From the sequence record KT184314.1: a stretch of 64,000 bases of DNA; one strand, 5' to 3'. The position numbers were made by a program, and so were the translations under genes. The DNA comes from Enterobacteria phage KhF2. Each line of letters starts with the position of its first letter. Position 1 is the first letter of the stretch. The notes below the pieces were generated by a model. The model saw only the letters and a list, made by a program, of their open reading frames with translations. It did not search any database and had not been told where the DNA came from. This document shows positions 33,663 to 55,706 of this stretch, piece after piece.

Positions 33663-34559
33663 TTAATCAAGGTTTGCTACAGTAACTTGGCTATAATGTG
33701 TTAAGCCACGGTCTTTAGCTTCCCCTAAAGAGTTTGTAGTGTAGATATGGTCAATACCATTGTCAAGCAAGTTTTCAACATCTTTAGAGAAAATACCATG
33801 AGTTACATAGAGTTCCACACGTTTTGCACCTGCTTCACGAAGATGTTTGGCTGCTTCTATGAAGGTTCGACCTCCATCACAAATATCATCCAGAATCATG
33901 ACAGTTTTATCTGTCAAATCAACATCGTCAAGGATTCGCATACCAGTAATTTCACCAGTCTTAAGGTTACGCACCTTAGACATTGTGATGTATGGTTTAT
34001 CCACCTCTTTAGCAGTCTCTGCAATCTTCTTAGCAGCACCTGCATCTGGGGCTACTAAGTAATCAATCAGTGGGTCATTTGCGTAGTGAACTGCAATCTC
34101 CTTTTGAGGAATACTCTGGAAGCAGTTAAACAGGTTATCTGGAACGTAACTGTGAGGGTCAACTGCACAGACTGCACCAAATCCCATTGCATTTACCTGT
34201 TTAGCAAAAACCTTTAAAGCTGCTGCGTCGCCTTTAAACATGTGACGGTCATAACGTGCATTTGGTAAGTAGTAAAAGATGACAGTCTTTAAAGCATAAT
34301 CATGAGGAATTAAATCATCAATTGCTTCTTTAGCAAGTGCCACAGCAAACAATGTATCCTTATCATAACCTTTTACAATCATAATCACATTGTTGATGGA
34401 TGATGCTGCATAAGCAGTGAAATCAACAAACTCTGGCGAAAAGTGTCCACCAATCTCACCAGAAGGAAATTGGATGATGTTAAACTCTTCTTCATGAGTT
34501 CCTTTAGTTGGTGAATGAACTGTAACACGGATAGATGTTTTCATAGTTTTCTCTCTCAA
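33663..34559 (-). CDS. ribose-phosphate pyrophosphokinase (PRPP synthetase)-like protein
   Basis: PRPP-binding signature VMILDDICDGGRT; 298 aa. Confidence 0.6.
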   Translation of the reverse strand: MREKTMKTSIRVTVHSPTKGTHEEEFNIIQFPSGEIGGHFSPEFVDFTAYAASSINNVIMIVKGYDKDTLFAVALAKEAIDDLIPHDYALKTVIFYYLPNARYDRHMFKGDAAALKVFAKQVNAMGFGAVCAVDPHSYVPDNLFNCFQSIPQKEIAVHYANDPLIDYLVAPDAGAAKKIAETAKEVDKPYITMSKVRNLKTGEITGMRILDDVDLTDKTVMILDDICDGGRTFIEAAKHLREAGAKRVELYVTHGIFSKDVENLLDNGIDHIYTTNSLGEAKDRGLTHYSQVTVANLD

Positions 34560-34834
34560 TCAAAAGTTACGTTTGTTACTGCCATTGCAGATTTGCATTT
34601 TGCAGGGTCTACAACGTGATAAAGTACACTACAGTTACCTGTGCTGTCTGGTACAGGTTTAACCCATTGTTGCTTGACAGTTGGTTCGCCTAAGTCTTTG
34701 TAAGAACCATCTGTAAAGTTGTTTACCATCTCAAGTGCAATTGGCTCTGGAACATGACCACGTATCATGTACATTTCACAACCATTACCTCCTTCACTGA
34801 CTAATGGTAAAATCTCCCACTTTTCTTTAGCCAT
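34556..34834 (-). CDS. hypothetical protein
   Basis: ORF track; coupled start. Confidence 0.45.
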   Translation of the reverse strand: MAKEKWEILPLVSEGGNGCEMYMIRGHVPEPIALEMVNNFTDGSYKDLGEPTVKQQWVKPVPDSTGNCSVLYHVVDPAKCKSAMAVTNVTFD

Positions 34835-35342
34835 TATAAGTTGCCCTATAAACTGTCTCGAACTTCAACAGGAGAGATATTGCCAAATCTGTATAGTTGT
34901 TGTCAAGCACATCTGGCATATTATTTTTGATATATTTCTCTTGCTCTTCATAGGTCATCTTAGGGATACTTAGGAGGCTATCTCCTTGCTTCTGGTTATC
35001 AGTTTTAGTTTGGATAAACCAGTTCGCACAGTGATGTTCACCACCTTTTGTAACAGGTTTGTGGTGGCCTAGTGTAAATGTTTGCTTACCCGTATACCTG
35101 CAAAGATTGTTCAGTGTTGCAATGGTGTTCTTCACAACACACCATTCATACAGGTTATCTATTGTGTAGTGTGGGTAATAACGGACAAGTGCTCTTTCAC
35201 GGAAGTTATCACGATTCCAAAGAACCATGTGATTAGAATTTGAAGGGTCATATTTGTGGGAGTCTATAAACTCTTGACGCTCATCAAAGCTGAGTCTTAG
35301 AACTGACATTGCAACCGAACGTTTCAGGTTTGACAGATACAT
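34827..35342 (-). CDS. possible HNH-family endonuclease
   Basis: His-rich segment GHHKPVTKGGEHHCANW resembles an HNH core; weak. Confidence 0.3.
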   Translation of the reverse strand: MYLSNLKRSVAMSVLRLSFDERQEFIDSHKYDPSNSNHMVLWNRDNFRERALVRYYPHYTIDNLYEWCVVKNTIATLNNLCRYTGKQTFTLGHHKPVTKGGEHHCANWFIQTKTDNQKQGDSLLSIPKMTYEEQEKYIKNNMPDVLDNNYTDLAISLLLKFETVYRATYNG

Positions 35343-35393
35343 TTTACCTCCAAAATAAAAAGGGAACCTTTACAGTCCCCTTATAGTATCTGT

Positions 35394-35714
35394 TTACTGA
35401 GCTACTTTCAAGATGCTTGTGAATGAAATATCACTCTCATCCATAAACTCTTTTGCTTCTCCAGTAACTTTCACAAAGTTATCTAGGCAGATAATCTTCT
35501 TATCTTTCTTGCTGTAGGTTAGCTTAACCTTTTCAATATCTTTCTTAGAGCTTTTCTCTTCATTAAAGAGTTTTACAGCTTCTTTGAATGGGAGGTATGA
35601 GCCATCATCATCGCTAATAAAACCTGTACCACAATAGTAGAAGTTGTATTCTTTAGCCATAAACTGGCACAGTACGAAAATCTGTAATTTACGAGTGTTA
35701 TAAACTTTGCTCAT
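35394..35714 (-). CDS. hypothetical protein
   Basis: ORF track. Confidence 0.45.
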   Translation of the reverse strand: MSKVYNTRKLQIFVLCQFMAKEYNFYYCGTGFISDDDGSYLPFKEAVKLFNEEKSSKKDIEKVKLTYSKKDKKIICLDNFVKVTGEAKEFMDESDISFTSILKVAQ

Positions 35715-35716
35715 GG

Positions 35717-35983
35717 TTATTTAACCTTCTTGTTACGTTTACGGTTACGAGCTTTCTTAGCTGCTCGTTTAATAGCTGCTGCACCAGATTGGCGGTGGGC
35801 TTGTTTCTTACCACCTTTACCACGTCCTACGTAGATGTAAGGATGCTGTTCAATTTGGCTTGCAAGAACCTGTGCAACCGCTGAAGCATCTACACCGACC
35901 TGCTTTCCAGTCATAGAAACAATTGCTGCTGCTTTTTCCAGTGCCTTCAAGAATCCAGCTTTCATATTACCTAAAATTCCCAT
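35717..35983 (-). CDS. hypothetical basic protein (Lys/Arg-rich C-terminus)
   Basis: ORF track. Confidence 0.45.
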   Translation of the reverse strand: MGILGNMKAGFLKALEKAAAIVSMTGKQVGVDASAVAQVLASQIEQHPYIYVGRGKGGKKQAHRQSGAAAIKRAAKKARNRKRNKKVK

Positions 35984-36079
35984 TTTTAGTCTCTCTCATT
36001 AAAGTTTAATACAGAACTTATGAAGTTCTTCTTCAGTGATACCAATTGGAGTTATACCTTAGTCCATTTGCCAGAATAA

Positions 36080-36565
36080 TCACTCTGCTCTCCACTGACA
36101 ATCACCTTGCCATCCGTACTCTTTTCTCCAGAGGTTTTGGTTATCTGAACCACGATACGGTTTAACTGTTGGTTTAGATGAATCATACTTACCATCAATC
36201 ACCACGTCAACATATTTCATCACATCAAGGTGAATTTTTTCATGTAACTGAAAACCTGTCCAGAGCCAGATAGATTTTTCTGGGTAAACGGTTTTAATAC
36301 GTTTGCATATGTTGGTAACCTCTTGAATGTTTCTATCATCCAGAGGTTCTCCACCAAGTATTGACAGCCCACTGATGGCATTATCATCCATTAACTTAAT
36401 GATGCCATAAAGGTTTGCATAAGTGAACTCTTTACCAGCATTAAACTTCCAAGATTCCTTATTAAAGCAACCTTCACAGTGATGCTTACAACCAGCTACG
36501 AAGAGGCTTACACGAACCCCTTCACCATTAGCTGTGTCAAATGGTCGAATCTCCATGTAATTCAT
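36080..36565 (-). CDS. nrdG: anaerobic ribonucleotide reductase activating protein (radical SAM)
   Basis: CxxxCxxC cluster (CKHHCEGC) near N-terminus; about 160 aa; near nrdD. Confidence 0.7.
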   Translation of the reverse strand: MNYMEIRPFDTANGEGVRVSLFVAGCKHHCEGCFNKESWKFNAGKEFTYANLYGIIKLMDDNAISGLSILGGEPLDDRNIQEVTNICKRIKTVYPEKSIWLWTGFQLHEKIHLDVMKYVDVVIDGKYDSSKPTVKPYRGSDNQNLWRKEYGWQGDCQWRAE

Positions 36566-36574
36566 CTAGTTACC

Positions 36575-36874
36575 TCACCAATACATATAAGTGTTCTTAG
36601 CGGCTTTCTTTGGAGACTTGCTATCAATATCAAAATCTTCATCTAAGAAGGATGTCTTAGAAAGCTGCCTTATTTGTGTTCTTGTAAGACGTTTAGTGGC
36701 CTTCTTAATCTCTCTACAAGGCTGGCTTGTGAAGTCGTAAGAGCCACCTTTTCTGGACATCATATCAGAATGGAAGTAGACATCTGAAGCATTTTCTCTG
36801 TTACGTACCTCATTTCTCCACTCATAGAGTCCATGAACGTTCTTTAAACCTTTTCTTCGAATTGTTTTACTCAT
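36575..36874 (-). CDS. hypothetical protein
   Basis: ORF track. Confidence 0.45.
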   Translation of the reverse strand: MSKTIRRKGLKNVHGLYEWRNEVRNRENASDVYFHSDMMSRKGGSYDFTSQPCREIKKATKRLTRTQIRQLSKTSFLDEDFDIDSKSPKKAAKNTYMYW

Positions 36875-37266
36875 TCAAACACCACCTGACAAGGAACCTG
36901 TTTAGTAATAAATTCTTCACAGTGCTCTTTAATGAAGTTTTGTAGTGGCACACAGTCTTGTGCACAAGTCATTAGCATAATGTACTCTGGATTCATAATA
37001 TTTTCAAGACTGTAGAAGACAACATCGTCAGATAGCTCGTGACCATCTTCTTCACTCCACGTTCCAGTGACTACAGCTAATTTATCAAGCAATTCATTAG
37101 GCAATGCTACACCATCTTCTACGGAATCGCTTAGAACGTTGTCGCTGATATACAATGTGAAGGCCGTATGGAATGTTGAGTATTTTACGTGATTCTTTTC
37201 GCAAGAGCCACACTCTGAGGCGTAATCTTTAATCCACTCTAACTGTTTTTGGTTTAACTTAATCAT
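36871..37266 (-). CDS. hypothetical protein
   Basis: ORF track. Confidence 0.45.
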   Translation of the reverse strand: MIKLNQKQLEWIKDYASECGSCEKNHVKYSTFHTAFTLYISDNVLSDSVEDGVALPNELLDKLAVVTGTWSEEDGHELSDDVVFYSLENIMNPEYIMLMTCAQDCVPLQNFIKEHCEEFITKQVPCQVVFE

Positions 37267-37463
37267 AATTTCACCTTAGTTGGTAATGCACTGAATGCTA
37301 TAGCTAACCCTAAAAATGGTTTGAAGCATGACCATAAATCCATCTGACCATGATATGATAAACTCCATTGTGGGTCTGAAAAACCCCATAACATAACACT
37401 AACCCCAAAGAAGAAGATTAGAATGTGGAGTATGTATATCATCGTTTTTGATATCTTAAACAT
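37263..37463 (-). CDS. hypothetical small membrane protein
   Basis: ORF track; two hydrophobic segments. Confidence 0.4.
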   Translation of the reverse strand: MFKISKTMIYILHILIFFFGVSVMLWGFSDPQWSLSYHGQMDLWSCFKPFLGLAIAFSALPTKVKL

Positions 37464-37617
37464 TTTAACTTATCTCTCAATTCACAATAAGAGAGTCCTA
37501 AAAAGAACCCTAGTAAGACAGAACCTATGAATAGGCCAATGATGTTCTCTGCCATATCTAACATCCAATAAAAAAGGTGATGCAAGCCTATCAAGACCCA
37601 CATCACCTTGTCAAGTT

Positions 37618-39762
37618 TTACATAGAAATTCTGTCACGAATCTCAGCGATTTTTGCATCATTCATTCGAGATTCACCTTTAATCTTAGTCCACCCAAGAT
37701 ATCCGCACACCCTGTTAATCACAGAGATGTCGTGTGAATGGCAAACCTCACATTCTTCAACATCAGCCTTTGGTCTGTTACCACAATGTTCACAGATTGC
37801 TAAGTCAAAGTTAAGTCCCTGATAAAAACCCTTCAACATCCCTCTGGTAATACAACTTTTAAGTGCTGGCAAGTTTTCTGGGTTAGCTACCCTTACATAC
37901 TGGATTCTGCCGCCTCTACAGATATGGAAGAATGGCTCTTCTAAGTCCTGCTTCTCAAATGGTGAGATGTCTGCTGCAACATTCATATGGAAACTGTTTG
38001 TAAAGTATTCCTTGTCAGAGACACCTTTAATGACGCCAAACATATCTCTGAACTGTTTTAACTGAGTTCCACAAAGTGATTCTGCTGGAGTGCCATATAC
38101 CGCATACAAGAAGCCATCTTCGTTCTTAAACTCTTCAGTTTTCATGTTGATGTATTCCAGAACATCATATGCAAAACTATAGCCTCCAACTTCATGAAGT
38201 CGTTTACCTTCAGCAAGAACAGACAGCTCATCAAGAGCAGTAACCCCAAAAGAAGCTGTGAAGGACTTCACGATATCCCAACCAACCTTGTCAGTAGGTT
38301 TCTTAGTCCCTTTGTACAGACCACCTTGTGTGAATGCAAGAGGGTTAGAACTTGCTGGCATATTAGCAATCATTTCGTAGCGTTTCTTGTGGAAGCTGCG
38401 AATCATCTCTAGGTACTTATCAAGCTCTTTCCAGAAATCTAAACCATTCTCTTTAGAATACTGGTAAATCATTGGTAAGTTCAAAGATACAGCACCAATG
38501 TTAGCACGACCAACGTAGAACTCTTCCCCATCCTCGTTAAGATATGGAGATAAGAAGGCTCTACAACCCATCGGCGAGATTACCTTGCCAGAACGCTCAA
38601 AAGCTTCTGCTACAGCACCATGACCAGATACACTTAAGAAATCTGGATACATCGCTTTAGAGCAACACTCTATAGCTTTACTGTACAGGTGGCCTTGACA
38701 GATATTCTCATTATGTCTCTTCTGGTCATAAATATAAACCAGTTTAGGGAATACAACAGGTTTCTTGCTCTTACCTTGTCCATTCATACGAACATCTAGG
38801 AGAGTACTTGCAATCATATATTGCAGTCGGTTATCTTCATTAGACATATCTGAGTCAAGTAACCCGAATGTCAAAGTTGTAAATGCAAAATCCCCACGGC
38901 TACAAGGTACGGTATTTAGTTTCATTTCAAGTGACTGGAAACCTTGAGTTAGTTCAATCTGTAGCTGCTCCATTACATAATTGTGGTAATGCTCTTTAGG
39001 AATACCATAAGATGATGCTTTCTCAGCATGATAGCGTAGAGACTTCTTAGCATACGGTACAAGTACCTTATCAATCTCTGCTAAAGTAAAACCACCAAAT
39101 TGCTGTGCAGTTGCTGAAAGTACTACGTCACCAATAACCTGCAACGCTGACAGTACAGATTTAGGTTCACAGTACTCAATGCCGGACATTTCAAAGCCAC
39201 CTTTTAGTACTTTACCAATGTCAAACAGGCAACAGTTAATACCACCAAAAATCAGGTCTCTCAAATCGTGGATATAGATAAAGCCTTTCTCAATGGCTTC
39301 AAGTTCCTCTGGTGTTAGATGATACTGTTTAAATATTTCTTTAGTCAGGTAACCACGGATAATTGAACCTTTCGTAGAAATTAAACTGCTGTCAAAGTTA
39401 GCATTTTCACGGTCACCTAAGAAGAGTGTATCTTTAGTCTTCTGGTAGAGTTCGTCCCAATTTTGAGCAACCTCTTTACGGTAATTTCTGTATGTTGAGT
39501 AAGACTCATAAATCTCGTGATTGACCTCTGCCAAAGCACCTTCAACAATACTGTGAATATCATTTACCGAGATAAGCAAATTATTCTGCTTAGTGGACTT
39601 TACCAAAATCCTCATGAATGCTGACTCAAGAGCTTGGGTAACATCTGGTGGAAGTTCTTTATATCCAACCCTGTTAGCTGACTTAGCTACTGCTGCTAAA
39701 ACTTTTTTGATATCGGGTTCTTCAAGTGAGCCGTTCTTTTTAATAATCTGTACTTTGTTCAT
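37618..39762 (-). CDS. nrdD: anaerobic ribonucleoside-triphosphate reductase (class III)
   Basis: 714 aa; C-terminal glycyl-radical motif RVCGYLG and C-terminal Cys cluster (CEHCG...CEVCHS). Confidence 0.8.
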   Translation of the reverse strand: MNKVQIIKKNGSLEEPDIKKVLAAVAKSANRVGYKELPPDVTQALESAFMRILVKSTKQNNLLISVNDIHSIVEGALAEVNHEIYESYSTYRNYRKEVAQNWDELYQKTKDTLFLGDRENANFDSSLISTKGSIIRGYLTKEIFKQYHLTPEELEAIEKGFIYIHDLRDLIFGGINCCLFDIGKVLKGGFEMSGIEYCEPKSVLSALQVIGDVVLSATAQQFGGFTLAEIDKVLVPYAKKSLRYHAEKASSYGIPKEHYHNYVMEQLQIELTQGFQSLEMKLNTVPCSRGDFAFTTLTFGLLDSDMSNEDNRLQYMIASTLLDVRMNGQGKSKKPVVFPKLVYIYDQKRHNENICQGHLYSKAIECCSKAMYPDFLSVSGHGAVAEAFERSGKVISPMGCRAFLSPYLNEDGEEFYVGRANIGAVSLNLPMIYQYSKENGLDFWKELDKYLEMIRSFHKKRYEMIANMPASSNPLAFTQGGLYKGTKKPTDKVGWDIVKSFTASFGVTALDELSVLAEGKRLHEVGGYSFAYDVLEYINMKTEEFKNEDGFLYAVYGTPAESLCGTQLKQFRDMFGVIKGVSDKEYFTNSFHMNVAADISPFEKQDLEEPFFHICRGGRIQYVRVANPENLPALKSCITRGMLKGFYQGLNFDLAICEHCGNRPKADVEECEVCHSHDISVINRVCGYLGWTKIKGESRMNDAKIAEIRDRISM

Positions 39763-39773
39763 TATTGCCCCTT

Positions 39774-39798
39774 TACATGCTAAAAAGGTCTCCGAAGA
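39774..39798 (-). terminator. rho-independent terminator
   Basis: Minus-strand GGGTCTCTTCGGAGACC followed by TTTTTAG. Confidence 0.55.
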
Positions 39799-39810
39799 GA
39801 CCCTTTCATT

Positions 39811-40017
39811 TTAAATCTTTTTAGAAAACTTAGAAACGAGTTTTCTCAGTTTTTCAGTGATGCCTAGCTGTATCTCTAATATTTCGAAGATAACCCATAG
39901 TAACATGGCTCCAAACAATGAACCTTGTTCAAAGTCAGTAAATAGGTTAACAATAAGCATACCAATCACAATAGCTGGTGCATCAACAACCAAACCTTCC
40001 CAAAGGCGTTTAAGCAT
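39811..40017 (-). CDS. hypothetical small membrane protein
   Basis: ORF track; hydrophobic. Confidence 0.4.
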   Translation of the reverse strand: MLKRLWEGLVVDAPAIVIGMLIVNLFTDFEQGSLFGAMLLWVIFEILEIQLGITEKLRKLVSKFSKKI

Positions 40018-40252
40018 TATTCACCTCTGCCATAAAATTCTGTAGCGTTCCAACAGGTTTTAGGTTTTGTCCATCAGTTTTCATGATGAACGGCATCTGA
40101 CGAACTGGCATCTGTGCAATATCCATCAGGTCTGACAGTTCATAATCCTGCCCTAACATTCTCACAACATGGTCAATACCACGAGCTTTTGCAAAATTCT
40201 TTGCAGTCTCACACTGAGGGCATCCAGTTTTGGAGTAAATCACATAAGTCAT
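40010..40252 (-). CDS. glutaredoxin / NrdH-like redoxin
   Basis: 80 aa; CPQC redox motif near N-terminus; adjacent to nrdB. Confidence 0.6.
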   Translation of the reverse strand: MTYVIYSKTGCPQCETAKNFAKARGIDHVVRMLGQDYELSDLMDIAQMPVRQMPFIMKTDGQNLKPVGTLQNFMAEVNNA

Positions 40253-41325
40253 TAAGGAACCTCTAAAAATCCACTATTCAAATCATCTACAATAGTATTC
40301 AACAGGTACGCACCGTTCTGTTGCTCCTGATTAGCATTCTGCTCTTTATCAATTTCCATCTTCTTAATCATATACTTCAAAGGTGGTTCTTTAGGAGCTA
40401 CAAAATCTCTGGGAATGCCAAACATATCATACAGTGGGGCAGCATTATAGTAAACCCACTCATGAAGAAGCTTTGTATTTAAGCCAACTACAGCACGTCC
40501 TTCGGAGAAGATATAATACGACCATTTCTCTTCACTTTCAACTACTTCATCTAAGATTACTTTAATCTCTGGAAGAATTTGTTGAAAAGCTTTCTGCCAC
40601 TCATCATCTCTTAAAGTTTCTTTTAAAACTTCAATATCAATTTTAGTGTGAAGGATTTCATCAAGCATAATCTTCTGCACAGCTTGAGCAATACCCTGAA
40701 ATTTATCTTGAGCATCAAGTGCAAAAGTACATGCAAAGGATGCCATAAAAGATATACCTTCCAGTGCAGTCACTGCAAATAGACCTTTTAGAATCACTTT
40801 ATGGAAGTGTAAAGGGTCTTTGTCCAGAAGCGAATCACGCACATAACTCAGGCGATAGTTTATACCTTCATCCAGTAATTCTTCAAGAACACGATTCACA
40901 GTTTTTAATCGGTCTTGCACAGCAACATTCTGGTTAATCTCATCTAAGATTGTTTCAGGGTTTTTAATACATTGTCTTACAATCTCTGAGTAAGTAAGAG
41001 CATGTAGGTTTTCAATCTCAGACTGCTTCATAATTGCAGTTGCATAGATGTCATCAGAGATAAAGGGTGCAAAGGCAAATGCCAAGCTCTTAGCAACTTG
41101 AGTGTCTGCTTCCCATTGCCACTTAAGAATCTCAAGCATTACACCTGACATTGATGCTGGAACACTCTCAAAATCAAGACGTGATTGTTCAAAAGGGAAC
41201 TCATCTTCTGACCAGTCTTGTGCTTTTTGTTGTTTATAAAGTTCAAAGATTTTTGGGTAGTGCTTATTAAGTGAGTCAAAAGTTTTTCTCTCACCACCTA
41301 AAAAGATTGGGTGCTGGTTAATCAT
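40252..41325 (-). CDS. nrdB: ribonucleotide reductase small subunit (class Ia)
   Basis: About 360 aa directly downstream of nrdA; start set at internal Met (MINQHPIF) to give ATGA coupling with the upstream small ORF; track start is 41385. Confidence 0.65.
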   Translation of the reverse strand: MINQHPIFLGGERKTFDSLNKHYPKIFELYKQQKAQDWSEDEFPFEQSRLDFESVPASMSGVMLEILKWQWEADTQVAKSLAFAFAPFISDDIYATAIMKQSEIENLHALTYSEIVRQCIKNPETILDEINQNVAVQDRLKTVNRVLEELLDEGINYRLSYVRDSLLDKDPLHFHKVILKGLFAVTALEGISFMASFACTFALDAQDKFQGIAQAVQKIMLDEILHTKIDIEVLKETLRDDEWQKAFQQILPEIKVILDEVVESEEKWSYYIFSEGRAVVGLNTKLLHEWVYYNAAPLYDMFGIPRDFVAPKEPPLKYMIKKMEIDKEQNANQEQQNGAYLLNTIVDDLNSGFLEVP

Positions 41326-41579
41326 AGCGTGATTTCTCCTTTCTTTATCATTTCTAAGGCTTGTTTTCTGTCTAAAACTTCCCAATTTTCTTTGTTAAAC
41401 ATCTCATAAGGTCTTGCGTAAATTTTACCATCTGCTGTAGAGATATAAGAGGCTCCAGTGACCCATAAGTCATCATTCTGCTTTATCATGATACCTGTGC
41501 TGCTCACATAGTACAATGTTTTGCGGGGTTTGTAGAGCAAGTATATTGGTCGCTCATGTTTTTCTATTAAATCTTTCAT
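41322..41579 (-). CDS. hypothetical small protein between nrdA and nrdB
   Basis: ORF track 41322..41663, trimmed to Met MKDLIEKH. Confidence 0.4.
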   Translation of the reverse strand: MKDLIEKHERPIYLLYKPRKTLYYVSSTGIMIKQNDDLWVTGASYISTADGKIYARPYEMFNKENWEVLDRKQALEMIKKGEITL

Positions 41580-41634
41580 GGTCTCTCCAAAGTTATTTTT
41601 AGAGGGTCTTTTACGACCCTCATAATTGTTAAAA

Positions 41635-43869
41635 CTAAACACCACAACCCTCGCAATAAGCATCTTGCAGTGCAGATTTACCTACACCAATGCGACTGTT
41701 AAGGTAGTACATAGTTTTCATACCTACTGAGTTAGCATAAATCATGTACTTCAAAGCTTGAGCCAATGATACCTTCTTAGCTTTTGCGTAGTCAACATAG
41801 AAATCTGAAGAGATAGCTTGACCAGTGAACTTTTGAACAATTGCATAACAATCAATCAGGTCAAAGGTGTCAATATCCCAAGCAATTTCATAGACATACT
41901 TCAACTCTTCGTAATCTGGAACAATAAACAGTACGTTACCAGTTGCAGACTTTTTAGTTAAAATAAAGTCACGAATTGGGTACAAGCCGTTTGTCGTATT
42001 AGTTGCCAGTGAAGAACTCTCATTAGGCATGTAAGCCTCTAATACAGAGTTACGGATTCCACCATTTTCTTTAATACGTTGTGCTAAGTCATCCCAATCA
42101 TAACGAAGTTTTGCATCATGCTTCTCATCAATCTTCTTGTTAGCTGTCTTTGGAGGAACCCAGCCTTCAGGATACTTAGTGAACTGCATATACTCAGGTA
42201 CACCACGTTCTTTAGCAAGTCTTAAAGAAGCTTCGTGTAAGTAGTAAGAGTGCATTTCAGCAAGCTCATGAAGCTTCGTCTTACCTGCTCTTGAAGAGTA
42301 GTTCACGTAGTTTTTTGCAAGGTAATGAGCCACATTTGTAAGGCCAATACCAACAGAACGACGCTTCTGAACATGGTTACGCATCGACGGATACGGATAA
42401 TCCATAAGGTCAATAACGGAGTCAACCATTGCAAGAGCATAATAAGCAACGTCAGCGTATTCATCTTCTGAAATTCTCCCTGCAACCAAACTAGCTAGGA
42501 AGCAAAGAGCTACCTCACCATCCTCTTTCACAGCATCATCTCTGTAAAGGTCTGTCTCTTTCTCAAAGCCGTACACTGGCAACACAATTTCCATACAAAG
42601 ATTTGACATCTTCAAAGGTTCTTTAAATGGCGTATGTGTGTTTGCATTATTCGTGAAGAATGGGTACACACGGCCTGTTGCATAACGCTGCTGGATAAAC
42701 AGTTTAGCAATTTCACGAGCCTTTACTCGTCTGTGCTTAACACCTGAATGGACTGCGTGACCAACTGCCATAGCAAACTCATCAGCAGATGCTGTGTAGA
42801 ACATGTCATAGAGTTTTGGTGCATCCTTGTAAGAGAATAGCAACCAGTCTGTATCATATTGAACACACTGCCAGAAATAATCATTTGTACCAAATGAGTA
42901 GTCCATCTCGTTAATACGTTTCGAAGGAACCGTTGTAGGGTGCTTCAAACGCAGTAAATCTTCAATCTGCGGGTCTAGAGCAGTATAGAAGTTGTTAGCT
43001 GAACCACCACGACTCTTCTGTTTGTTTGCCTCTACAGATGAACGTACAAGCTTGTAATAAGGTAGCTTACCCATGTGTTCAATAGTATTTTGACGGATAC
43101 CATCACCAATAGTGCGAGTCTCCATCAGCATCCCGATACCAGCTTGCTTTGTAGTCATATCATAAGCAACCTTTGCAGCAATACCGAGAGATTCAGCGGT
43201 ATCATTCGCCTTAATCAAACAGCATGACGCATAACCTGATTTAGTGGCTCTTAAACCATTCAGGTAAGGAGTAGGAGCGTTAATCTTCAGGTCAGATAGG
43301 TAAGTGTACAGCTTGATAACATCTTGCAGTCTACGGTGCTTTGGTTGCTTCTCAAAGGCTTTCATAGCCATACCCATAAACATAAATTGTGGTGACTCAA
43401 AAAGTCTTCCCGTTTTAATATCACGGATACCATACTTGTCTCTGAACTGTTTCAGGACTGCATAACCATAAGAGATATCTTTTGAGTGCACAATGTACCC
43501 TTGCAGGTATTCAAGCTCTTCCTGAGAATAGTCCATCTTCTCCCAAAGTCCTGCTCTCTCCATATTTTTAACGAAGGTAACCAGCGTAGGAACCTTAGTA
43601 AAACCTCCAAAGGCTTCTTTGTAGATAATTCCCAGAAGTAGCCGTCCAGCCATATCTGAGTACTCTTGAGTTTGTTTATCAACACAAACATCAATCATGG
43701 CTTGGTGCATCTCTTTTGTAGTGCAACCTTCATAGACACGTTTCATGGCTTCCATAGTGACTTCTGACCAGATGATTCCGCGCTTATCTGCCCATGATGC
43801 CCACTTATTCAGTCTTTCTGGGTCAAAGCTTACTACTGTACCGTTTGATTTTTTAATTGTCTTAATCAT
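41635..43869 (-). CDS. nrdA: ribonucleotide reductase large subunit (class Ia)
   Basis: 744 aa; active-site region SNLCMEIVLP (NxCxE) and operon context with nrdB. Confidence 0.75.
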   Translation of the reverse strand: MIKTIKKSNGTVVSFDPERLNKWASWADKRGIIWSEVTMEAMKRVYEGCTTKEMHQAMIDVCVDKQTQEYSDMAGRLLLGIIYKEAFGGFTKVPTLVTFVKNMERAGLWEKMDYSQEELEYLQGYIVHSKDISYGYAVLKQFRDKYGIRDIKTGRLFESPQFMFMGMAMKAFEKQPKHRRLQDVIKLYTYLSDLKINAPTPYLNGLRATKSGYASCCLIKANDTAESLGIAAKVAYDMTTKQAGIGMLMETRTIGDGIRQNTIEHMGKLPYYKLVRSSVEANKQKSRGGSANNFYTALDPQIEDLLRLKHPTTVPSKRINEMDYSFGTNDYFWQCVQYDTDWLLFSYKDAPKLYDMFYTASADEFAMAVGHAVHSGVKHRRVKAREIAKLFIQQRYATGRVYPFFTNNANTHTPFKEPLKMSNLCMEIVLPVYGFEKETDLYRDDAVKEDGEVALCFLASLVAGRISEDEYADVAYYALAMVDSVIDLMDYPYPSMRNHVQKRRSVGIGLTNVAHYLAKNYVNYSSRAGKTKLHELAEMHSYYLHEASLRLAKERGVPEYMQFTKYPEGWVPPKTANKKIDEKHDAKLRYDWDDLAQRIKENGGIRNSVLEAYMPNESSSLATNTTNGLYPIRDFILTKKSATGNVLFIVPDYEELKYVYEIAWDIDTFDLIDCYAIVQKFTGQAISSDFYVDYAKAKKVSLAQALKYMIYANSVGMKTMYYLNSRIGVGKSALQDAYCEGCGV

Positions 43870-43885
43870 TTTTGAATCCTACAGA

Positions 43886-43910
43886 TGAAAAGAGCCTCCG
43901 AAGAGGCTCC
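43886..43910 (-). terminator. rho-independent terminator
   Basis: Minus-strand GGAGCCTCTTCGGAGGCTC followed by TTTTCATCTG. Confidence 0.55.
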
Positions 43911-43915
43911 CTAGT

Positions 43916-44251
43916 TTAAATCTTGAAAATTTGCTCATTCTGCCACATATCGTAAAACTTATCACTTACTTTTGTGATAGACGAAGCGTGCATACAATTT
44001 AAGAGCCATGATGGAGTCTTGCTATCCATGATTATTTTGAGCTTTTGTGCGACGTTGCCATCCATATCTGAAACAACATAATTACCGCGTATTTTACATA
44101 CAACTTTTCCAAACAAGATTGCACTTCTTCCTCTTCGGTCATCACAGTACATAACTGTGTCTCCGTGTTTAACGTCCCGTCCGAGACTGTCAACACCTAA
44201 TTTAGCACCAGAGATAATGGCATCGTAATCTAACTTCTTTGCTTTAAACAC
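43916..44251 (-). CDS. hypothetical protein
   Basis: ORF track. Confidence 0.45.
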   Translation of the reverse strand: MFKAKKLDYDAIISGAKLGVDSLGRDVKHGDTVMYCDDRRGRSAILFGKVVCKIRGNYVVSDMDGNVAQKLKIIMDSKTPSWLLNCMHASSITKVSDKFYDMWQNEQIFKI

Positions 44252-44576
44252 GGTATTTCTCCAAGTTTCTTTTTAGATATAACCAACCGTAGTCAGTCCT
44301 TTCTACACCCATAAAAAGTGGAGCCATCACAACTTTACCAAAAGTATTCCTGTGTTGGCAGATTTCAAAAGAATACTCTTTCTCAATGTCAATCCCGTAT
44401 TTGTACAGGACTGCTTTTAAAACTTGTTCATTATCCAGAAGTGTATCTGGAGTCTCACCATACTTTTCAAGTAACGGGTCATTCATAAACACCGTCATAG
44501 AAATATTGTAGTTTGAGAAGTGGCTCTTCTGAGCCACACCTTCTTTATTAATGTTCTGTGAATCCATTATAACCAA
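44244..44576 (-). CDS. hypothetical protein
   Basis: ORF track. Confidence 0.45.
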   Translation of the reverse strand: MVIMDSQNINKEGVAQKSHFSNYNISMTVFMNDPLLEKYGETPDTLLDNEQVLKAVLYKYGIDIEKEYSFEICQHRNTFGKVVMAPLFMGVERTDYGWLYLKRNLEKYRV

Positions 44577-45303
44577 CCCCTTTTAACCAGCACTTCAGGT
44601 TATTAGCATCATAATTCAGTTTCGGGTATGAGGTTACATGGAACTGCTCACCATCATAGTAGACAATATCTGCAATCCATAGTCCATTCTCTTTACAGAA
44701 GTCTTTATCTGCTTTAGAGGTAATTGGATTAACTTCTACAAAACCATCTACACCCAAATCCTTTAAGCTACATACAATACCTTTGCAGATAACGCATGTG
44801 TCAGATACTACCACAAAAAGTTCTTGGCTTTCAAGTTCTACAATGTATTCACCAAGCTGAACTTTAGGGAGATTAGATTGCTTCATAATCTTCCCATCGG
44901 CTGCGCGAACAATTGCATACCACTCTTTACCATCAACTACTGACATTCTGATGATACACTCTTGACCAGTACGCTTCTCAATATCTGCAAGACGTTTTAA
45001 AGCTTCTTCATAGTCGTCTGTGTACTTCAGGTCATTATTATGGCAAACGGCTTCCATAGCGCCATTGTGGTCATGCTGTGACAGATAAATCAGACCGTCA
45101 AGAACATATTGCAAATCTGCCTGAGCATCCAGTGTCTCAATGGGGTCTTTCTCTTCAATTGCTTTTACAAGCTCTTTTGCTTCTTCAAGCATACATAGAG
45201 ATTGAGATTTCAAAGACTCCCAATACTCATCACTGTAAGGTTGCTTTTGAGTGTTTCCACAACGAAGATTCCAGTTTTTTACTGATTCTCTTGAGTTAAA
45301 CAT
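44548..45303 (-). CDS. hypothetical protein
   Basis: ORF track. Confidence 0.45.
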   Translation of the reverse strand: MFNSRESVKNWNLRCGNTQKQPYSDEYWESLKSQSLCMLEEAKELVKAIEEKDPIETLDAQADLQYVLDGLIYLSQHDHNGAMEAVCHNNDLKYTDDYEEALKRLADIEKRTGQECIIRMSVVDGKEWYAIVRAADGKIMKQSNLPKVQLGEYIVELESQELFVVVSDTCVICKGIVCSLKDLGVDGFVEVNPITSKADKDFCKENGLWIADIVYYDGEQFHVTSYPKLNYDANNLKCWLKGVGYNGFTEH

Positions 45304-45542
45304 TTGGACTCCTTAAAATATCTGTTAACCTTTAGCTCTCGTGTTTCAATATATTCCAGATGTTCACGTAGCTCTTGACGTTTAAGCATTAGGTGCTGCA
45401 TTTGAGATTCAACAGCTTCAACCTCTTTAATTATTGACTCTCTGGCATTTGCAAGAATGCGCTCAAGTTCTTCAATCTTGCTGTCAACTTTTGCTACATG
45501 ACTCACAGCTTTACTTTTGTTAAACATTTTATTCTCTCTCAA
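45279..45542 (-). CDS. hypothetical coiled-coil protein
   Basis: ORF track; heptad-like charged pattern. Confidence 0.4.
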   Translation of the reverse strand: MRENKMFNKSKAVSHVAKVDSKIEELERILANARESIIKEVEAVESQMQHLMLKRQELREHLEYIETRELKVNRYFKESKCLTQENQ

Positions 45543-45548
45543 TAGTTA

Positions 45549-46046
45549 TCAAGCACAGTTTGCTTTCATTACCTTATGGATTCTTTTTTCAGCATCTTCA
45601 TAAGTTTCTTTAGTAATAAACTTAATTGCTGCAATATTGGCATTGTAGAAGAGCCTGAGCTTCGAGTCAATCCTTTTTGTCATTACATCGAATTTATGTT
45701 GAAGGTTTGCTTCACCATAGACTAGACCACCTTTTGTGTAGTAGGTTTGAATAATGTAAAAATCAAAAGATTCTTTTCCAAAGCTTTCAATATCTTTTTT
45801 AATATACTCAGAAGAGGTTTCGTAAGTCATCCAATCACTCTCCTTAGTGACTACCTTCTTCCGAGTCTTCCCAGCAACTTTTCTTTTTGTCACACTGTTA
45901 AGCTGTTTCTTTCCGATATAATATTGTCCAGTCTTCTTACAGTGCACTAAATAGACAAAGCCAAAATGTTTAGTGGGGTCAACTTCCCCACATAAAGATA
46001 CCCAATGACCGTAGGTAGGGCAATTGCCAAATCCTTTAATCTTCAT
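45549..46046 (-). CDS. putative GIY-YIG endonuclease
   Basis: Motif FVYLVHCKKTGQYYIGKK resembles the GIY-x(10)-YIG signature. Confidence 0.4.
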   Translation of the reverse strand: MKIKGFGNCPTYGHWVSLCGEVDPTKHFGFVYLVHCKKTGQYYIGKKQLNSVTKRKVAGKTRKKVVTKESDWMTYETSSEYIKKDIESFGKESFDFYIIQTYYTKGGLVYGEANLQHKFDVMTKRIDSKLRLFYNANIAAIKFITKETYEDAEKRIHKVMKANCA

Positions 46047-55645: not shown

Positions 55646-55706
55646 TTAGTATTGACAAGGTTCTCATGGAAGAGTACCTTATACTGTATCTTATATAGGA
55701 GGGCTT

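What the first reader, a model, noticed from the sequence alone, without database searches (positions are those of the whole stretch)
34827..46046. Possible homing endonucleases inside the replication/nucleotide-metabolism block
A GIY-YIG-like ORF (45549..46046) between the SSB/flap-endonuclease genes and upstream ORFs, and an HNH-like ORF (34827..35342) next to the NAD module, are the kind of free-standing endonucleases that mobilise themselves between related phages. Both calls rest on short motifs only.
Basis: inference. Interest (0 to 1): 0.4.

Follow-up and report, generated by a model that had tools for sequence, protein, structure and literature searches.

The report
Two conserved, non-mobile phage nuclease genes
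The two flagged genes of this Felix O1-like phage do look like nucleases, but they are fixed, conserved genes of the whole phage subfamily rather than the selfish "homing" endonucleases that come and go in its relatives, so the finding is mostly ordinary.

Summary
The window is a Felixounavirus (subfamily Ounavirinae), about 96.7% identical to VpaE1_ev78, SP22 and KhF3. Both ORFs exist exactly as described.

**ORF B** (45549..46046, minus strand, 165 aa) is a firm GIY-YIG call: Pfam PF19835, E 4.9e-28.

**ORF A** (34827..35342, minus strand, 171 aa) is a probable divergent HNH (H-N-N) nuclease. It gets no Pfam hit. The support is an invariant H93/N107 and a near-invariant N116 at the canonical spacing, a predicted beta-beta-alpha unit, and several weak HNH profile and fold matches.

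**The homing-endonuclease reading is not supported.**
- ORF B is present in every relative, at the same place.
- Its start overlaps the stop of the 5'-3' exonuclease gene.
- Its dN/dS is 0.00-0.05, and it is better conserved than its neighbours.
- ORF A is complete in about 93% of relatives, has syntenic homologues in other Ounavirinae genera, and has dN/dS of 0.07-0.19.
- Neither protein has a DNA-binding module.

**Real homing endonucleases** (HNH_3 plus AP2 or NUMOD1) occur sporadically at four sites of this block in relatives. All four sites are empty in this window.

**Most likely roles.** ORF B is a stand-alone endonuclease that works with the adjacent exonuclease; this is inferred, not shown. 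ORF A is a dispensable accessory nuclease of unknown role.

The parts
45549..46046 (-). ORF B: 165-aa stand-alone GIY-YIG nuclease (phrog_447; often mislabelled 'NAD synthetase' or 'GIY-YIG homing endonuclease' in GenBank)
   Evidence: ORF listed. Pfam PF19835 E 4.9e-28. phrog_447 E 3.4e-48. Present in all relatives. dN/dS 0.00-0.05.
45633..45986 (-). GIY-YIG catalytic domain of ORF B (aa 21-138). Motifs: GFVY32, Y43-I-G45, E112, N135.
45837..45896 (-). Lys/Arg-rich insertion of about 19 aa (aa 51-70, NSVTKRKVAGKTRKKVVTKE) relative to T4 SegE. It is predicted to form a beta-hairpin and is a candidate DNA-contact element.
   Evidence: Gap in the hhalign alignment with SegE. Strands 50-55 and 64-69 in the model. 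K64 invariant and R62 nearly invariant. The DNA-contact role is inference.
46036..47076 (-). 5'-3' (FEN/RNase H-type) exonuclease gene. Its last 11 nt (46036..46046) overlap the start of ORF B.
   Evidence: phrog_107 exonuclease E 1.8e-63. Sequence of the overlap...TGT ATG AAT GAA GAT TAA with the ORF B ATG inside it. Pfam 5_3_exonuc hits are only sub-threshold.
46051..46059 (.). Empty insertion site for an HNH_3+AP2 homing endonuclease gene that sits between the exonuclease gene and ORF B in HY02, FO1a and others
   Evidence: Alignment break points against HY02 and FO1a. Annotations. Pfam HNH_3 about 1e-11 plus AP2. Sporadic distribution. The same insertion is present or absent in a divergent lineage (L020 versus L021).
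34827..35342 (-). ORF A: 171-aa protein of a small family (phrog_3500, 'unknown function'); probable divergent HNH (H-N-N) nuclease
   Evidence: ORF. phrog_3500 E 7e-93 and HNH PHROGs at 2.2e-6 and 0.0047. Family alignments. Only 18 representatives among 1.84 billion proteins. dN/dS 0.07-0.19.
34980..35078 (-). Predicted beta-beta-alpha metal-finger core of ORF A (aa 89-121) with H93, G100-G101, N107 and N116
   Evidence: AlphaFold secondary structure. Invariant and near-invariant columns. Sub-threshold PF01844 and HNH_5 hits in homologues. NCBIfam match to the IscB HNH region at E 0.022.
35360..35382 (-). Conserved terminator-like hairpin plus T-run between the DUF7390 gene and ORF A, followed by a GGAGG ribosome-binding site
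   Evidence: Terminator scan. Sequence. The stem is conserved, with loop changes, in Felixounavirus and Mooglevirus.
34556..34834 (-). 92-aa ORF that overlaps the end of ORF A by 8 nt and the longest prs reading frame (TTG start at 34559) by 4 nt. It is variable: absent in BPS17W1, and co-deleted or replaced together with ORF A in some phages.
   Evidence: (phrog_4726).
35394..35714 (-). DUF7390 gene, next to ORF A in five of the six Ounavirinae lineages checked (not detected beside it in Erwinia phage phiEa104). It is annotated 'HNH endonuclease' in several GenBank records, with no support for that label here.
   Evidence: Pfam DUF7390 E 1.1e-16. Adjacent to ORF A homologues in P778, Hafnia and Pectobacterium Wc4. 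Mostly deleted in HY02.
37618..39762 (-). Intact nrdD. It has an empty site at about 38565, where relatives carry a 741-nt insertion with an HNH_3+NUMOD1 endonuclease gene, and a second empty site at about 37618-37624, where BPS17W1 carries a 567-nt NUMOD3 endonuclease gene.
   Evidence: Break points. Annotations. Pfam. Literature on split nrdD (PMC4837284).

Best explanation
Both ORFs are genuine nuclease-family genes of a Felix O1-like phage, but they are resident, vertically inherited genes and not mobile homing endonuclease genes.

**ORF B** is a SegE-type GIY-YIG catalytic domain with its active-site residues intact and no DNA-binding domain. It is a core gene of the Ounavirinae and is translationally coupled to the 5'-3' exonuclease gene. 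Its most likely mechanism is inferred, not shown. It would act as a low-specificity endonuclease that makes nicks or breaks, which the co-expressed 5'-3' exonuclease then extends. The purpose would be either breakdown of host DNA into nucleotides for the surrounding RNR, MazG and dNMP-kinase module, or processing of replication and recombination intermediates. The comparison with T7 endonuclease I plus exonuclease gp6, and with T4 EndoII plus its exonucleases, is from general knowledge.

**ORF A** is a member of a small, unannotated subfamily of HNH (H-N-N, His-Me finger) nucleases. The motif sits between helical regions. The gene follows a conserved terminator-like hairpin and heads a run of overlapping genes: ORF A, the 92-aa ORF, prs and nadV. 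It is under purifying selection but is dispensable, and its substrate is unknown.

The true homing endonucleases of this phage group insert at four sites in this block, and all four are unoccupied in this window.
For: **Identity of the phage.** Felixounavirus; 262 related records, the best at 96.7% identity.

**ORF B fold.** Pfam PF19835 E 4.9e-28. The catalytic Tyr, Tyr-x-Gly, Glu and Asn are conserved and align with T4 SegE, SegG and I-TevI.

**ORF B is not mobile.**
- 297 records (261 at 80% coverage or more) against 286 (260) for the exonuclease control.
- The order exonuclease, GIY-YIG, small ORF, MazG holds in five Ounavirinae lineages and in metagenomic relatives.
- There is an 11-nt overlap with the exonuclease stop.
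- dN/dS is 0.00-0.05. Identity to the Yersinia, Hafnia and Erwinia phages is 62-64%, higher than for the exonuclease (53-60%) or MazG (38-42%).
- Only one domain is detected in the 165 aa.

**Coupling to an exonuclease.**
- A 42%-identical homologue directly follows, and overlaps, a FEN-type exonuclease gene in roseophage DSS3_PM1 of the Naomviridae.
- In an unrelated metagenomic phage contig, the homologue overlaps a non-homologous Cas4-domain exonuclease gene.

**ORF A fold.** Invariant H93, G100, G101 and N107, and near-invariant N116, at the canonical spacing. Predicted beta-beta-alpha unit. HNH PHROGs at 2.2e-6. The family profile reaches a bona fide HNH protein at 1.3e-4. Weak hits all point to HNH.

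**ORF A is not mobile.** 254 records (240 at 80% coverage or more) against 257 for the control. Syntenic homologues in P778, Hafnia, Erwinia and Pectobacterium phages, and 38-43% homologues in Phapecoctavirus. dN/dS 0.07-0.19.

**Contrast with real homing endonucleases.** Those in relatives carry HNH_3 at about 1e-11 plus AP2, NUMOD1 or NUMOD3, are sporadic, and have no tblastn match anywhere in the window.
Against: - No biochemical data exist for either family, so every functional step is inferred.
- The exonuclease adjacency of ORF B-type genes is not universal. In cyanophage P-SSM4 the homologue sits among unrelated genes.
- ORF A is missing or replaced in a few relatives: a methylase cassette in 5 phages, and deletions in GE_vB_7A and FO1a. 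It also follows a terminator-like hairpin, an arrangement I recall for some T4 free-standing endonuclease genes (from memory). So a past mobile origin is not excluded.
- Longer relatives of the ORF B domain in Vibrio and Aeromonas phages look like classical free-standing endonucleases.
- dN/dS comes from my own pairwise Nei-Gojobori script. dS is saturated for the distant genomes.
Confidence: 0.6

Rival explanations
1. ORF A and ORF B are active free-standing homing endonucleases. They cut the cognate locus of relatives that lack them and spread by recombinational repair.
For: - Both have nuclease motifs.
- ORF B belongs to the Pfam family named after the T4 homing endonuclease SegE. It matches 'homing endonuclease' PHROGs and is labelled so in many GenBank records.
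- Long relatives in Vibrio D490 and Aeromonas phage 65 look like free-standing endonucleases.
- ORF A is absent or replaced in a few relatives and follows a terminator-like hairpin.
- The block is rich in homing endonucleases in relatives (PMC3185647).
Against: - Presence is universal (ORF B) or near-universal (ORF A), at a fixed syntenic position across genera.
- Purifying selection is strong, and ORF B is better conserved than its neighbours.
- Neither has a DNA-binding domain, unlike the sporadic endonucleases of the same phages.
- The reading frames overlap those of neighbouring genes.
- The ORF A-less genomes show a cassette swap or a larger deletion, not a clean empty target site.
Confidence: 0.08
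2. ORF B is a structure-specific nuclease, similar in role to Slx1 or T7 endonuclease I. It would resolve or trim branched replication and recombination intermediates together with the flap exonuclease, and would not degrade host DNA.
For: - It lies inside the replication block, coupled to the FEN-type exonuclease and close to the SSB-like, primase-helicase and polymerase genes.
- The exonuclease and GIY-YIG genes are also paired in a Naomviridae phage, and with a Cas4-type exonuclease in a metagenomic phage.
- GIY-YIG enzymes such as Slx1 and UvrC act on DNA structures rather than sequences (general knowledge).
- No DNA-binding domain for sequence recognition is present.
Against: - No sequence or fold link to Slx1 or UvrC was found. 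The closest relatives are Seg and I-TevI-type domains.
- I did not search the genome for another resolvase.
- The cyanophage homologues are not in a replication context.
Confidence: 0.25
3. ORF A is not a nuclease. The H-N-N pattern would be a relic or a coincidence in a helical protein with a structural or regulatory role, for instance in the NAD-salvage operon.
For: - No Pfam HNH hit for the window protein.
- The Foldseek top hit has E 0.56.
- No zinc-binding cysteine pairs are present.
- The gene heads a run of overlapping genes that ends with prs and nadV.
Against: - The most conserved positions of the whole family are exactly H93, G100, G101, N107 and N116, at the canonical HNH spacing.
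- Five independent weak matches all point to HNH domains: PHROG HNH profiles, PF01844/HNH_5, a phage gene annotated 'McrA protein', the IscB HNH region and the Gme HNH nickase.
- The family profile reaches a bona fide HNH protein at E 1.3e-4.
Confidence: 0.2
4. ORF B is a former homing endonuclease that reached fixation. It would now be functionless and drifting towards decay.
For: Its catalytic domain is of the Seg type. It has lost, or never had, a DNA-binding domain.
Against: - dN/dS is 0.00-0.05.
- It retains 62-64% identity across genera, more than the neighbouring essential-looking genes.
- The catalytic residues are invariant.
- The reading frame is intact in about 260 genomes.
Confidence: 0.03

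Closest known systems
T4 Seg-type free-standing GIY-YIG homing endonucleases (SegE, SegG; Pfam PF19835)
   Same: ORF B has the same catalytic domain family (Pfam E 4.9e-28; hhalign against SegE E 3e-4). It has the same GIY...YIG, Glu and Asn motifs.
   Different: - ORF B is 165 aa and has no C-terminal DNA-binding region, whereas T4 SegE is 205 aa.
- It has a basic insertion of about 19 aa.
- It is present in all relatives at one syntenic position.
- It overlaps the upstream gene.
- It is under strong purifying selection.
I-TevI (intron-encoded GIY-YIG endonuclease of T4 td)
   Different: Sequence similarity is not significant (hhalign E 0.21). ORF B has no linker, zinc finger or helix-turn-helix DNA-binding region, and it is not inside an intron.
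T4 endonuclease II (DenA), the stand-alone GIY-YIG enzyme that starts host DNA breakdown
   Same: Both are short, stand-alone GIY-YIG proteins encoded among nucleotide-metabolism genes; denA lies next to nrdB in T4. This is the functional model proposed for ORF B, by inference.
phrog_447 / cyanomyovirus T4-GC 213 proteins (annotated 'NAD synthetase')
   Same: ORF B is a member (E 3.4e-48). The family consists of short proteins of about 130-170 aa that are conserved in hundreds of Synechococcus and Prochlorococcus phage genomes.
   Different: Identity to these proteins is about 30-36%. The cyanophage gene examined is not next to an exonuclease gene. Nothing found here supports the 'NAD synthetase' name.
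Classical HNH endonucleases (PF01844; e.g. the Gme HNH nickase 4h9d, McrA, the IscB/Cas9 HNH domain)
   Same: ORF A has the H...N...N pattern with the canonical spacing, the P-x3-GG stretch, and a predicted beta-beta-alpha unit. It gives weak matches to these proteins.
   Different: ORF A is below every curated threshold. It has no zinc-binding cysteines. It carries its own conserved helical N-terminal part (R22, D62, E66, N78) and a C-terminal helix. The family is tiny, with 18 representatives in 1.84 billion proteins.
HNH_3+AP2 / HNH_3+NUMOD1 free-standing homing endonucleases of Felix O1-like phages
   Same: They occupy the same genome block and have a similar size, 154-188 aa.
   Different: They have clear Pfam HNH_3 hits plus DNA-binding modules, are sporadic among close relatives, and interrupt conserved gene junctions or nrdD. 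ORF A and ORF B have none of these properties, and none of these endonucleases is encoded in the window.

Membership tests
GIY-YIG nuclease superfamily (PF19835 SegE_GIY-YIG) - ORF B | Match to the curated family profile above its gathering score | tested here: met
   98.3 bits against a cut-off of 25, E 4.9e-28, profile positions 10-123 of 123.
GIY-YIG nuclease superfamily (PF19835 SegE_GIY-YIG) - ORF B | GIY and YIG motifs about 10-11 residues apart, plus conserved catalytic Glu and Asn | tested here: met
   G29-F-V-Y32 and Y43-I-G45. E112 and N135 are invariant in 13 homologues. N135 is invariant, and E112 falls in the Glu-bearing stretch, when T4 SegE, SegG and I-TevI are added. The position of the conserved Arg is ambiguous (R55 or R62).
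GIY-YIG nuclease superfamily (PF19835 SegE_GIY-YIG) - ORF B | GIY-YIG alpha/beta fold | tested here: inconclusive
Free-standing (Seg-like) homing endonuclease - ORF B | Catalytic domain joined to a DNA-binding region that gives site specificity | tested here: not met
   165 aa. The only Pfam domain covers aa 21-138, and no NUMOD, HTH, AP2 or zinc-finger hit is found. T4 SegE is 205 aa. Long relatives are 299-327 aa.
Free-standing (Seg-like) homing endonuclease - ORF B | Sporadic presence or absence among close relatives at the locus | tested here: not met
   297 records (261 at 80% coverage or more) against 286 (260) for the adjacent-gene control. Same position in five Ounavirinae lineages.
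Free-standing (Seg-like) homing endonuclease - ORF B | Cleavage of the endonuclease-less allele, with biased inheritance in crosses | not testable with these tools
   Needs enzyme assays and phage crosses. No natural ORF B-less relative was found.
HNH / His-Me finger nucleases (PF01844 and relatives) - ORF A | Match to a curated HNH profile above its gathering score | tested here: not met
   No HNH hit for the window protein. The best among homologues is 16.7 bits against a cut-off of 21.4 (E 0.0085), in the Yersinia phage protein. Others score 14.7-14.8 bits. The uncurated PHROG HNH profiles do match, at E 2.2e-6.
HNH / His-Me finger nucleases (PF01844 and relatives) - ORF A | Conserved His ... 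Asn ... His/Asn triad with canonical spacing | tested here: met
   H93, N107 (+14) and N116 (+23). H93, G100, G101 and N107 are invariant and N116 is at least 90% conserved in 16 sequences down to 22% identity. The canonical spacing itself is from general knowledge of PF01844.
HNH / His-Me finger nucleases (PF01844 and relatives) - ORF A | Beta-beta-alpha metal-finger fold, similar to solved HNH structures | tested here: inconclusive
Free-standing HNH homing endonuclease - ORF A | DNA-binding module (AP2, NUMOD and the like) beside the HNH motif | tested here: not met
   No such Pfam hit. The sporadic endonucleases of relatives have HNH_3 plus AP2, NUMOD1 or NUMOD3.
Free-standing HNH homing endonuclease - ORF A | Sporadic presence or absence among close relatives at the locus | tested here: not met
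   240 complete copies, in 254 matching records, against 257 for the flank control. Syntenic homologues exist in distant Ounavirinae. Exceptions: 5 genomes with a methylase cassette in its place, plus deletions in GE_vB_7A and FO1a.
T4 endonuclease II (DenA) family - ORF B | Detectable sequence or structural homology to DenA | tested here: not met

The most novel reading that the evidence does not exclude
ORF B-type proteins (phrog_447) would be one half of a conserved two-gene nuclease unit: a minimal GIY-YIG endonuclease without a DNA-binding domain, co-translated with a 5'-3' exonuclease. The pairing is kept across unrelated phage families, and in one lineage the exonuclease partner is a non-homologous type (FEN-type in Ounavirinae and Naomviridae, Cas4-type in a metagenomic phage). 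If true, a homing-endonuclease-type catalytic domain has been domesticated as a core phage DNA-processing or host-DNA-degradation enzyme. The widespread 'NAD synthetase' and 'homing endonuclease' labels on hundreds of phage genomes would then be wrong.
Probability: 0.35. Interest if true: 0.45.

Novelty: new member of a known kind. Interest (0 to 1): 0.25.

Why it matters
The practical value is in annotation and phage genomics.

- **ORF B.** Hundreds of Felix O1-like and cyanophage genomes label it 'NAD synthetase' or 'GIY-YIG homing endonuclease'. The data here show a core, non-mobile, stand-alone GIY-YIG nuclease. Its gene is tied to an exonuclease gene, which gives a testable idea of how these therapeutically used phages process or degrade DNA.
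- **ORF A.** It gives a probable fold and active site to a 'hypothetical protein' family (phrog_3500) that is conserved in several myovirus groups.
- **Scanning pipelines.** A nuclease motif alone does not identify a homing endonuclease. Presence or absence in relatives, domain architecture and selection pressure separate resident nucleases from mobile ones.

None of this would greatly surprise a specialist.

Tried and rejected
1. **PDB sequence search with family profiles.** Nothing relevant for ORF B. For ORF A the only hits were staphylococcal protein A B-domain repeats. Each repeat scores E 1-8; the total is inflated by repetition. I treated this as chance.
3. **Pfam and NCBIfam on ORF A and its homologues.** Only sub-threshold HNH hits.
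4. **PADLOC on both ORFs and their small neighbours.** No hits, so no link to known defence systems.
5. **T4 EndoII homology for ORF B.** Rejected.
6. **The DUF7390 neighbour as the real HNH gene**, as some GenBank records say. No HNH support. It is a DUF of unknown function.
7. **The 87-aa ORF downstream of ORF B as a detached DNA-binding domain.** Only weak coiled-coil-type matches, and it is poorly conserved beyond Felixounavirus and Mooglevirus. Rejected.
8. **Rfam search for a group I intron** in the nrdD insertion of phage nataliec. No match at gathering thresholds.
9. **Promoter scan.** 46 sites found against 38 +/- 5 expected, so not informative. One 10-of-12 match lies just upstream of ORF B, inside the exonuclease gene.
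10. **Exonuclease dimorphism versus HNH insertion.** I asked whether the two sequence types at the 3' end of the exonuclease gene simply track the presence of the HNH insertion. They do not: BPS17W1 has the divergent tract without the insertion.

Full report
**What the window is.** The 13-kb stretch 34000-47100 matches 262 phage records by megablast. Of these, 226 cover at least 80% of it. Nearly all are Felixounavirus phages (subfamily Ounavirinae, the Felix O1 group) of Escherichia, Salmonella and Shigella. The best matches are VpaE1_ev78, SP22 and KhF3 at about 96.7% identity. All genes from about 31.8 to 52 kb lie on the minus strand.

**Check of the observation.** Both ORFs exist at exactly the given coordinates on the minus strand. 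I call 34827..35342 (171 aa) 'ORF A' and 45549..46046 (165 aa) 'ORF B'.

*ORF B.*
- It matches Pfam PF19835 (SegE_GIY-YIG) with E 4.9e-28 and 98.3 bits against a gathering score of 25, over aa 21-138.
- It is a full-length member of phrog_447 (E 3.4e-48), a family oddly described as 'NAD synthetase'. It also matches three 'homing endonuclease' PHROGs.
- Thirteen homologues share G29-F-x-Y32, Y43-x-G45, E112 and N135.
- When T4 SegE, SegG and I-TevI are added, Y43, G45 and N135 remain invariant. E112 falls in the Glu-bearing stretch of those enzymes.
- hhalign against single T4 proteins gives SegE E 3e-4, I-TevI 0.21 and DenA 0.11.
- The GIY-YIG call is therefore confirmed.

*ORF A.*
- It has no Pfam hit of note, and its own family, phrog_3500, has unknown function.
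- It matches two HNH PHROGs (E 2.2e-6 and 0.0047, aa 58-124).
- Its sequence FTLGHHKPVTKGGEHHCANWFIQTKTDNQKQG places H93, N107 and N116 at the +14 and +23 spacing of the canonical HNH motif. The canonical spacing is from general knowledge of PF01844.
- In 16 family members down to 22% identity, the invariant positions include H93, G100, G101 and N107. N116 is nearly invariant.
- AlphaFold (pTM 0.74) predicts strand 89-93, strand 108-112 and helix 113-121, that is, a beta-beta-alpha unit.
- A profile of the family, searched against 1.84 billion representative proteins, finds only 18 proteins. Apart from a few short fragments they are about 160-190 aa long. The exception is a 363-aa protein (P0051, E 1.3e-4) that is a bona fide HNH protein by Pfam (HNH_5 8e-13, HNH 8.7e-12).
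- The remaining weak signals all point the same way:
  - PF01844 at E 0.0085 in the Yersinia phage homologue.
  - PF01844 and HNH_5 at about 0.03 in two others.
  - The HNH part of IscB at E 0.022.
  - A cyanophage gene annotated 'McrA protein' at E 9e-3.
  - The Gme HNH nickase 4h9d as Foldseek top hit, at E 0.56.
- I rate ORF A a probable (about 0.75) divergent H-N-N member of the HNH/His-Me finger superfamily, below every curated threshold.

**Test of the interpretation: presence or absence in relatives.**
- ORF B DNA finds 297 phage records, 261 with at least 80% coverage. A same-length control from the adjacent exonuclease gene finds 286 and 260.
- ORF A DNA finds 254 records, 240 at 80% coverage or more. 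A flank control finds 257.
- The gene order exonuclease, ORF B, small ORF, MazG-like gene is the same in all lineages examined:
  - Felixounavirus: nataliec, CL1, BPS17W1.
  - Mooglevirus: KPS64, KMM2.
  - Kolesnikvirus: Erwinia phage phiEa104.
  - A Hafnia phage and Yersinia phage P778.
  - Metagenomic relatives at 50-61% identity.
- ORF A homologues lie near prs in the same lineages, at 33-49% identity for the distant ones. Homologues at 38-43% identity occur in Phapecoctavirus phages of about 150 kb. In total 429 phage records match.

**Selection.** I ran pairwise Nei-Gojobori estimates against seven Felixounavirus and Mooglevirus genomes.
- ORF B gives dN/dS of 0.00-0.05 and ORF A gives 0.07-0.19. 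For comparison, nrdA and nrdB give 0.01-0.05 and the small hypothetical ORFs give 0.1-0.3.
- ORF B keeps 62-64% amino-acid identity to the Yersinia, Hafnia and Erwinia phages. That is more than the exonuclease (53-60%), MazG (38-42%) or prs (38-42%).

**Gene architecture.**
- The ORF B start codon lies inside the last 11 nt of the exonuclease gene, with a GGGAG 10 nt upstream. Its stop is 6 nt before the longest reading frame of the next ORF, which starts with TTG at 45542.
- ORF A overlaps the next ORF by 8 nt. That ORF overlaps the longest prs reading frame (TTG start at 34559) by 4 nt.
- ORF A is preceded by a terminator-like hairpin with a T-run and a GGAGG. The stem is conserved in Felixounavirus and Mooglevirus despite changes in the loop.
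- Neither protein has room for, or any hit to, a DNA-binding module.

**What real homing endonucleases look like here.** Relatives carry sporadic genes of 154-188 aa with clear Pfam HNH_3 (about 1e-10 to 1e-12) plus AP2 or NUMOD1, or with NUMOD3. They occupy four sites.

| Site in relatives | Examples | Equivalent position in the window | Calls |
|---|---|---|---|
| Between the exonuclease gene and ORF B | HY02, FO1a, metagenomic L020 (but not L021) | 46051-46059 | 31, 34, 80, 89 |
| Inside nrdD (741-nt insertion) | nataliec, BPS17W1 | about 38565 | 28, 39, 96; PMC4837284 |
| Just downstream of nrdD | BPS17W1 | 37618-37624 | 39, 96 |
| Just after the DNA polymerase gene | HY02, nataliec, FO1a, KPS64 | 55649-55651 | 28, 31, 32, 34, 96 |

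- None of ten such proteins has a tblastn match anywhere in the 64-kb window, so this phage has all four sites empty.
- The insertion at the exonuclease/ORF B junction is patchy among relatives.
- Around that junction, identity falls to 75-80% against 93-99% elsewhere. The low-identity tract covers:
  - window 45900-46100 in HY02;
  - window 45900-46600 in FO1a;
  - window 46100-46600 in BPS17W1, which lacks the insertion.

  This looks like endonuclease-associated gene conversion.
- Published work reports six HNH endonuclease genes in Felix O1 and one to several in its relatives (PMC3185647, PMC8300805, PMC4837284). I found no paper on the two families studied here.

**Exceptions for ORF A.**
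- In GEP101, S19cd, SP4, SEP1 and SP2, codons 39-171 of ORF A plus the first 57 codons of the 92-aa ORF are replaced by an adenine methyltransferase cassette.
- In GE_vB_7A, an unverified record, window 34591-35306 is deleted.
- In the laboratory derivative FO1a, a larger deletion removes prs, the 92-aa ORF and part of ORF A.
- The stretch between prs and nrdG is a small-indel mosaic. The 92-aa ORF is absent in BPS17W1, DUF7390 is mostly deleted in HY02, and 35837-36081 is replaced in CL1, FO1a and GEP101.
- ORF A is therefore dispensable and sits in a variable zone. The pattern is loss or replacement, not insertion into an otherwise intact target.

**How the genes most likely work.** For ORF B, three things are shown: a GIY-YIG active site, no DNA-binding domain, and core-gene behaviour. 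There is also a notable neighbourhood signal.
- In roseophage DSS3_PM1 (Naomviridae), a 42%-identical homologue directly follows and overlaps a FEN-type exonuclease gene. That gene is only 24% identical to the window's.
- In an unrelated metagenomic phage contig, the homologue overlaps the end of a Cas4-domain exonuclease gene (phrog_1990, E 6.9e-42). That gene is not homologous to the FEN-type enzyme.
- In cyanophage P-SSM4 the homologue (T4-GC 213) is not next to an exonuclease gene.

From this I infer that ORF B supplies endonucleolytic nicks or breaks for the co-expressed 5'-3' exonuclease. I see two possible purposes:
- Host DNA breakdown that feeds the surrounding nucleotide-metabolism genes (about 0.35).
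- Processing of branched replication or recombination intermediates (about 0.25).

The Lys/Arg-rich hairpin inserted relative to SegE (aa 51-70) is a candidate DNA contact.

For ORF A I can commit only to a metal-dependent DNA nicking or cleaving enzyme with low sequence specificity, expressed as the first gene after the hairpin. Its biological role is unknown.

**Comparison with known families, and novelty.**
- ORF B is a member of PF19835 and phrog_447. It fails the defining features of a free-standing homing endonuclease, and it is not detectably related to T4 EndoII.
- ORF A resembles HNH enzymes and probably works like them, but it fails the curated membership thresholds. It belongs to a small unannotated subfamily.
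- Both genes are already present in hundreds of deposited genomes, annotated as 'hypothetical', 'NAD synthetase' or 'GIY-YIG homing endonuclease'.
- The finding is therefore a re-reading of known genes: new members of known kinds, of modest interest. The one idea worth following up is the conserved pairing of an exonuclease gene with a GIY-YIG gene.

Noticed in passing
window 38565; 37618-37624; 46051-46059; 55649-55651: Four positions where relatives carry free-standing HNH-type homing endonuclease genes: inside nrdD, just downstream of nrdD, between the exonuclease gene and ORF B, and after the DNA polymerase gene. All four are unoccupied in this window. Ten such endonucleases from relatives have no tblastn match anywhere in the 64 kb.
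   Followed up: yes
window 45900-46600 (5' end of ORF B and 3' part of the exonuclease gene): A local divergence tract. Identity to HY02, FO1a and BPS17W1 drops to 75-82% against 93-99% in the flanks, next to the HNH insertion site. BPS17W1 has the divergent tract without the insertion. This is consistent with past endonuclease-driven gene conversion.
   Followed up: partly
window 34661-35228; locus L001 1519-2614 (phage GEP101): In five Felixounavirus genomes (GEP101, S19cd, SP4, SEP1, SP2), most of ORF A and the start of the 92-aa ORF are replaced by an adenine DNA methyltransferase cassette. The cassette is related to methylases of Salmonella siphoviruses. It is frameshifted in GEP101.
   Followed up: partly
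window 35394-35714: The 106-aa DUF7390 protein is annotated 'HNH (homing) endonuclease' in several GenBank records (nataliec, KPS64, BPS17W1, P778, the Hafnia phage). It has no HNH support in Pfam or PHROGs. It neighbours ORF A in most Ounavirinae, with the order inverted in the Hafnia phage, and is mostly deleted in HY02.
   Followed up: partly
window 45549-46046 and about 400 cyanophage records (e.g. L016 3893-4381): The label 'NAD synthetase' attached to phrog_447 and T4-GC 213 proteins in Felix O1-like phages and T4-like cyanophages has no support here. These are GIY-YIG domain proteins.
   Followed up: partly
window 35205-35297 (ORF A aa 16-46): The stretch LSFDERQEFIDSHKYDPSNSNHMVL resembles the staphylococcal protein A B-domain helix [24 protein letters not shown]. 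Each repeat scores only E 1-8, so the resemblance is probably chance.
   Followed up: no
window 35360-35382: A terminator-like hairpin between DUF7390 and ORF A. It is conserved across Felixounavirus and Mooglevirus, with loop substitutions that keep the stem. This suggests a transcription boundary or attenuator at the head of the ORF A, prs, nadV gene run.
   Followed up: partly
L003 4773-5513 (phage nataliec, inside nrdD): The 741-nt insertion that splits nrdD in relatives contains an HNH_3+NUMOD1 gene. It gave no Rfam group I intron match at gathering thresholds. Whether it is an intron or a plain gene split was not resolved.
   Followed up: partly
L018 3178-4399 (JGI metagenome contig Ga0310151_0000723); L017 88-1174 (roseophage DSS3_PM1): phrog_447 GIY-YIG genes directly follow and overlap an exonuclease gene in two phage lineages outside the Ounavirinae. 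One partner is a Cas4-domain exonuclease and the other a FEN-type exonuclease.
   Followed up: partly
public records GU169904.1 (Staphylococcus phage SA1), MG065668.1 and MG065645.1 (Campylobacter phages A126 and A145), protein P0028: Records named for Staphylococcus, Campylobacter and Methanobrevibacter hold sequence that matches enterobacterial phages. Examples: 93.7% identity over 13 kb in SA1; the Felixounavirus ORF A at 89.6% in A126; a Phapecoctavirus-level ORF A homologue in A145; and the ORF B homologue P0028 labelled Methanobrevibacter. This looks like contamination or chimeric assembly.
   Followed up: no
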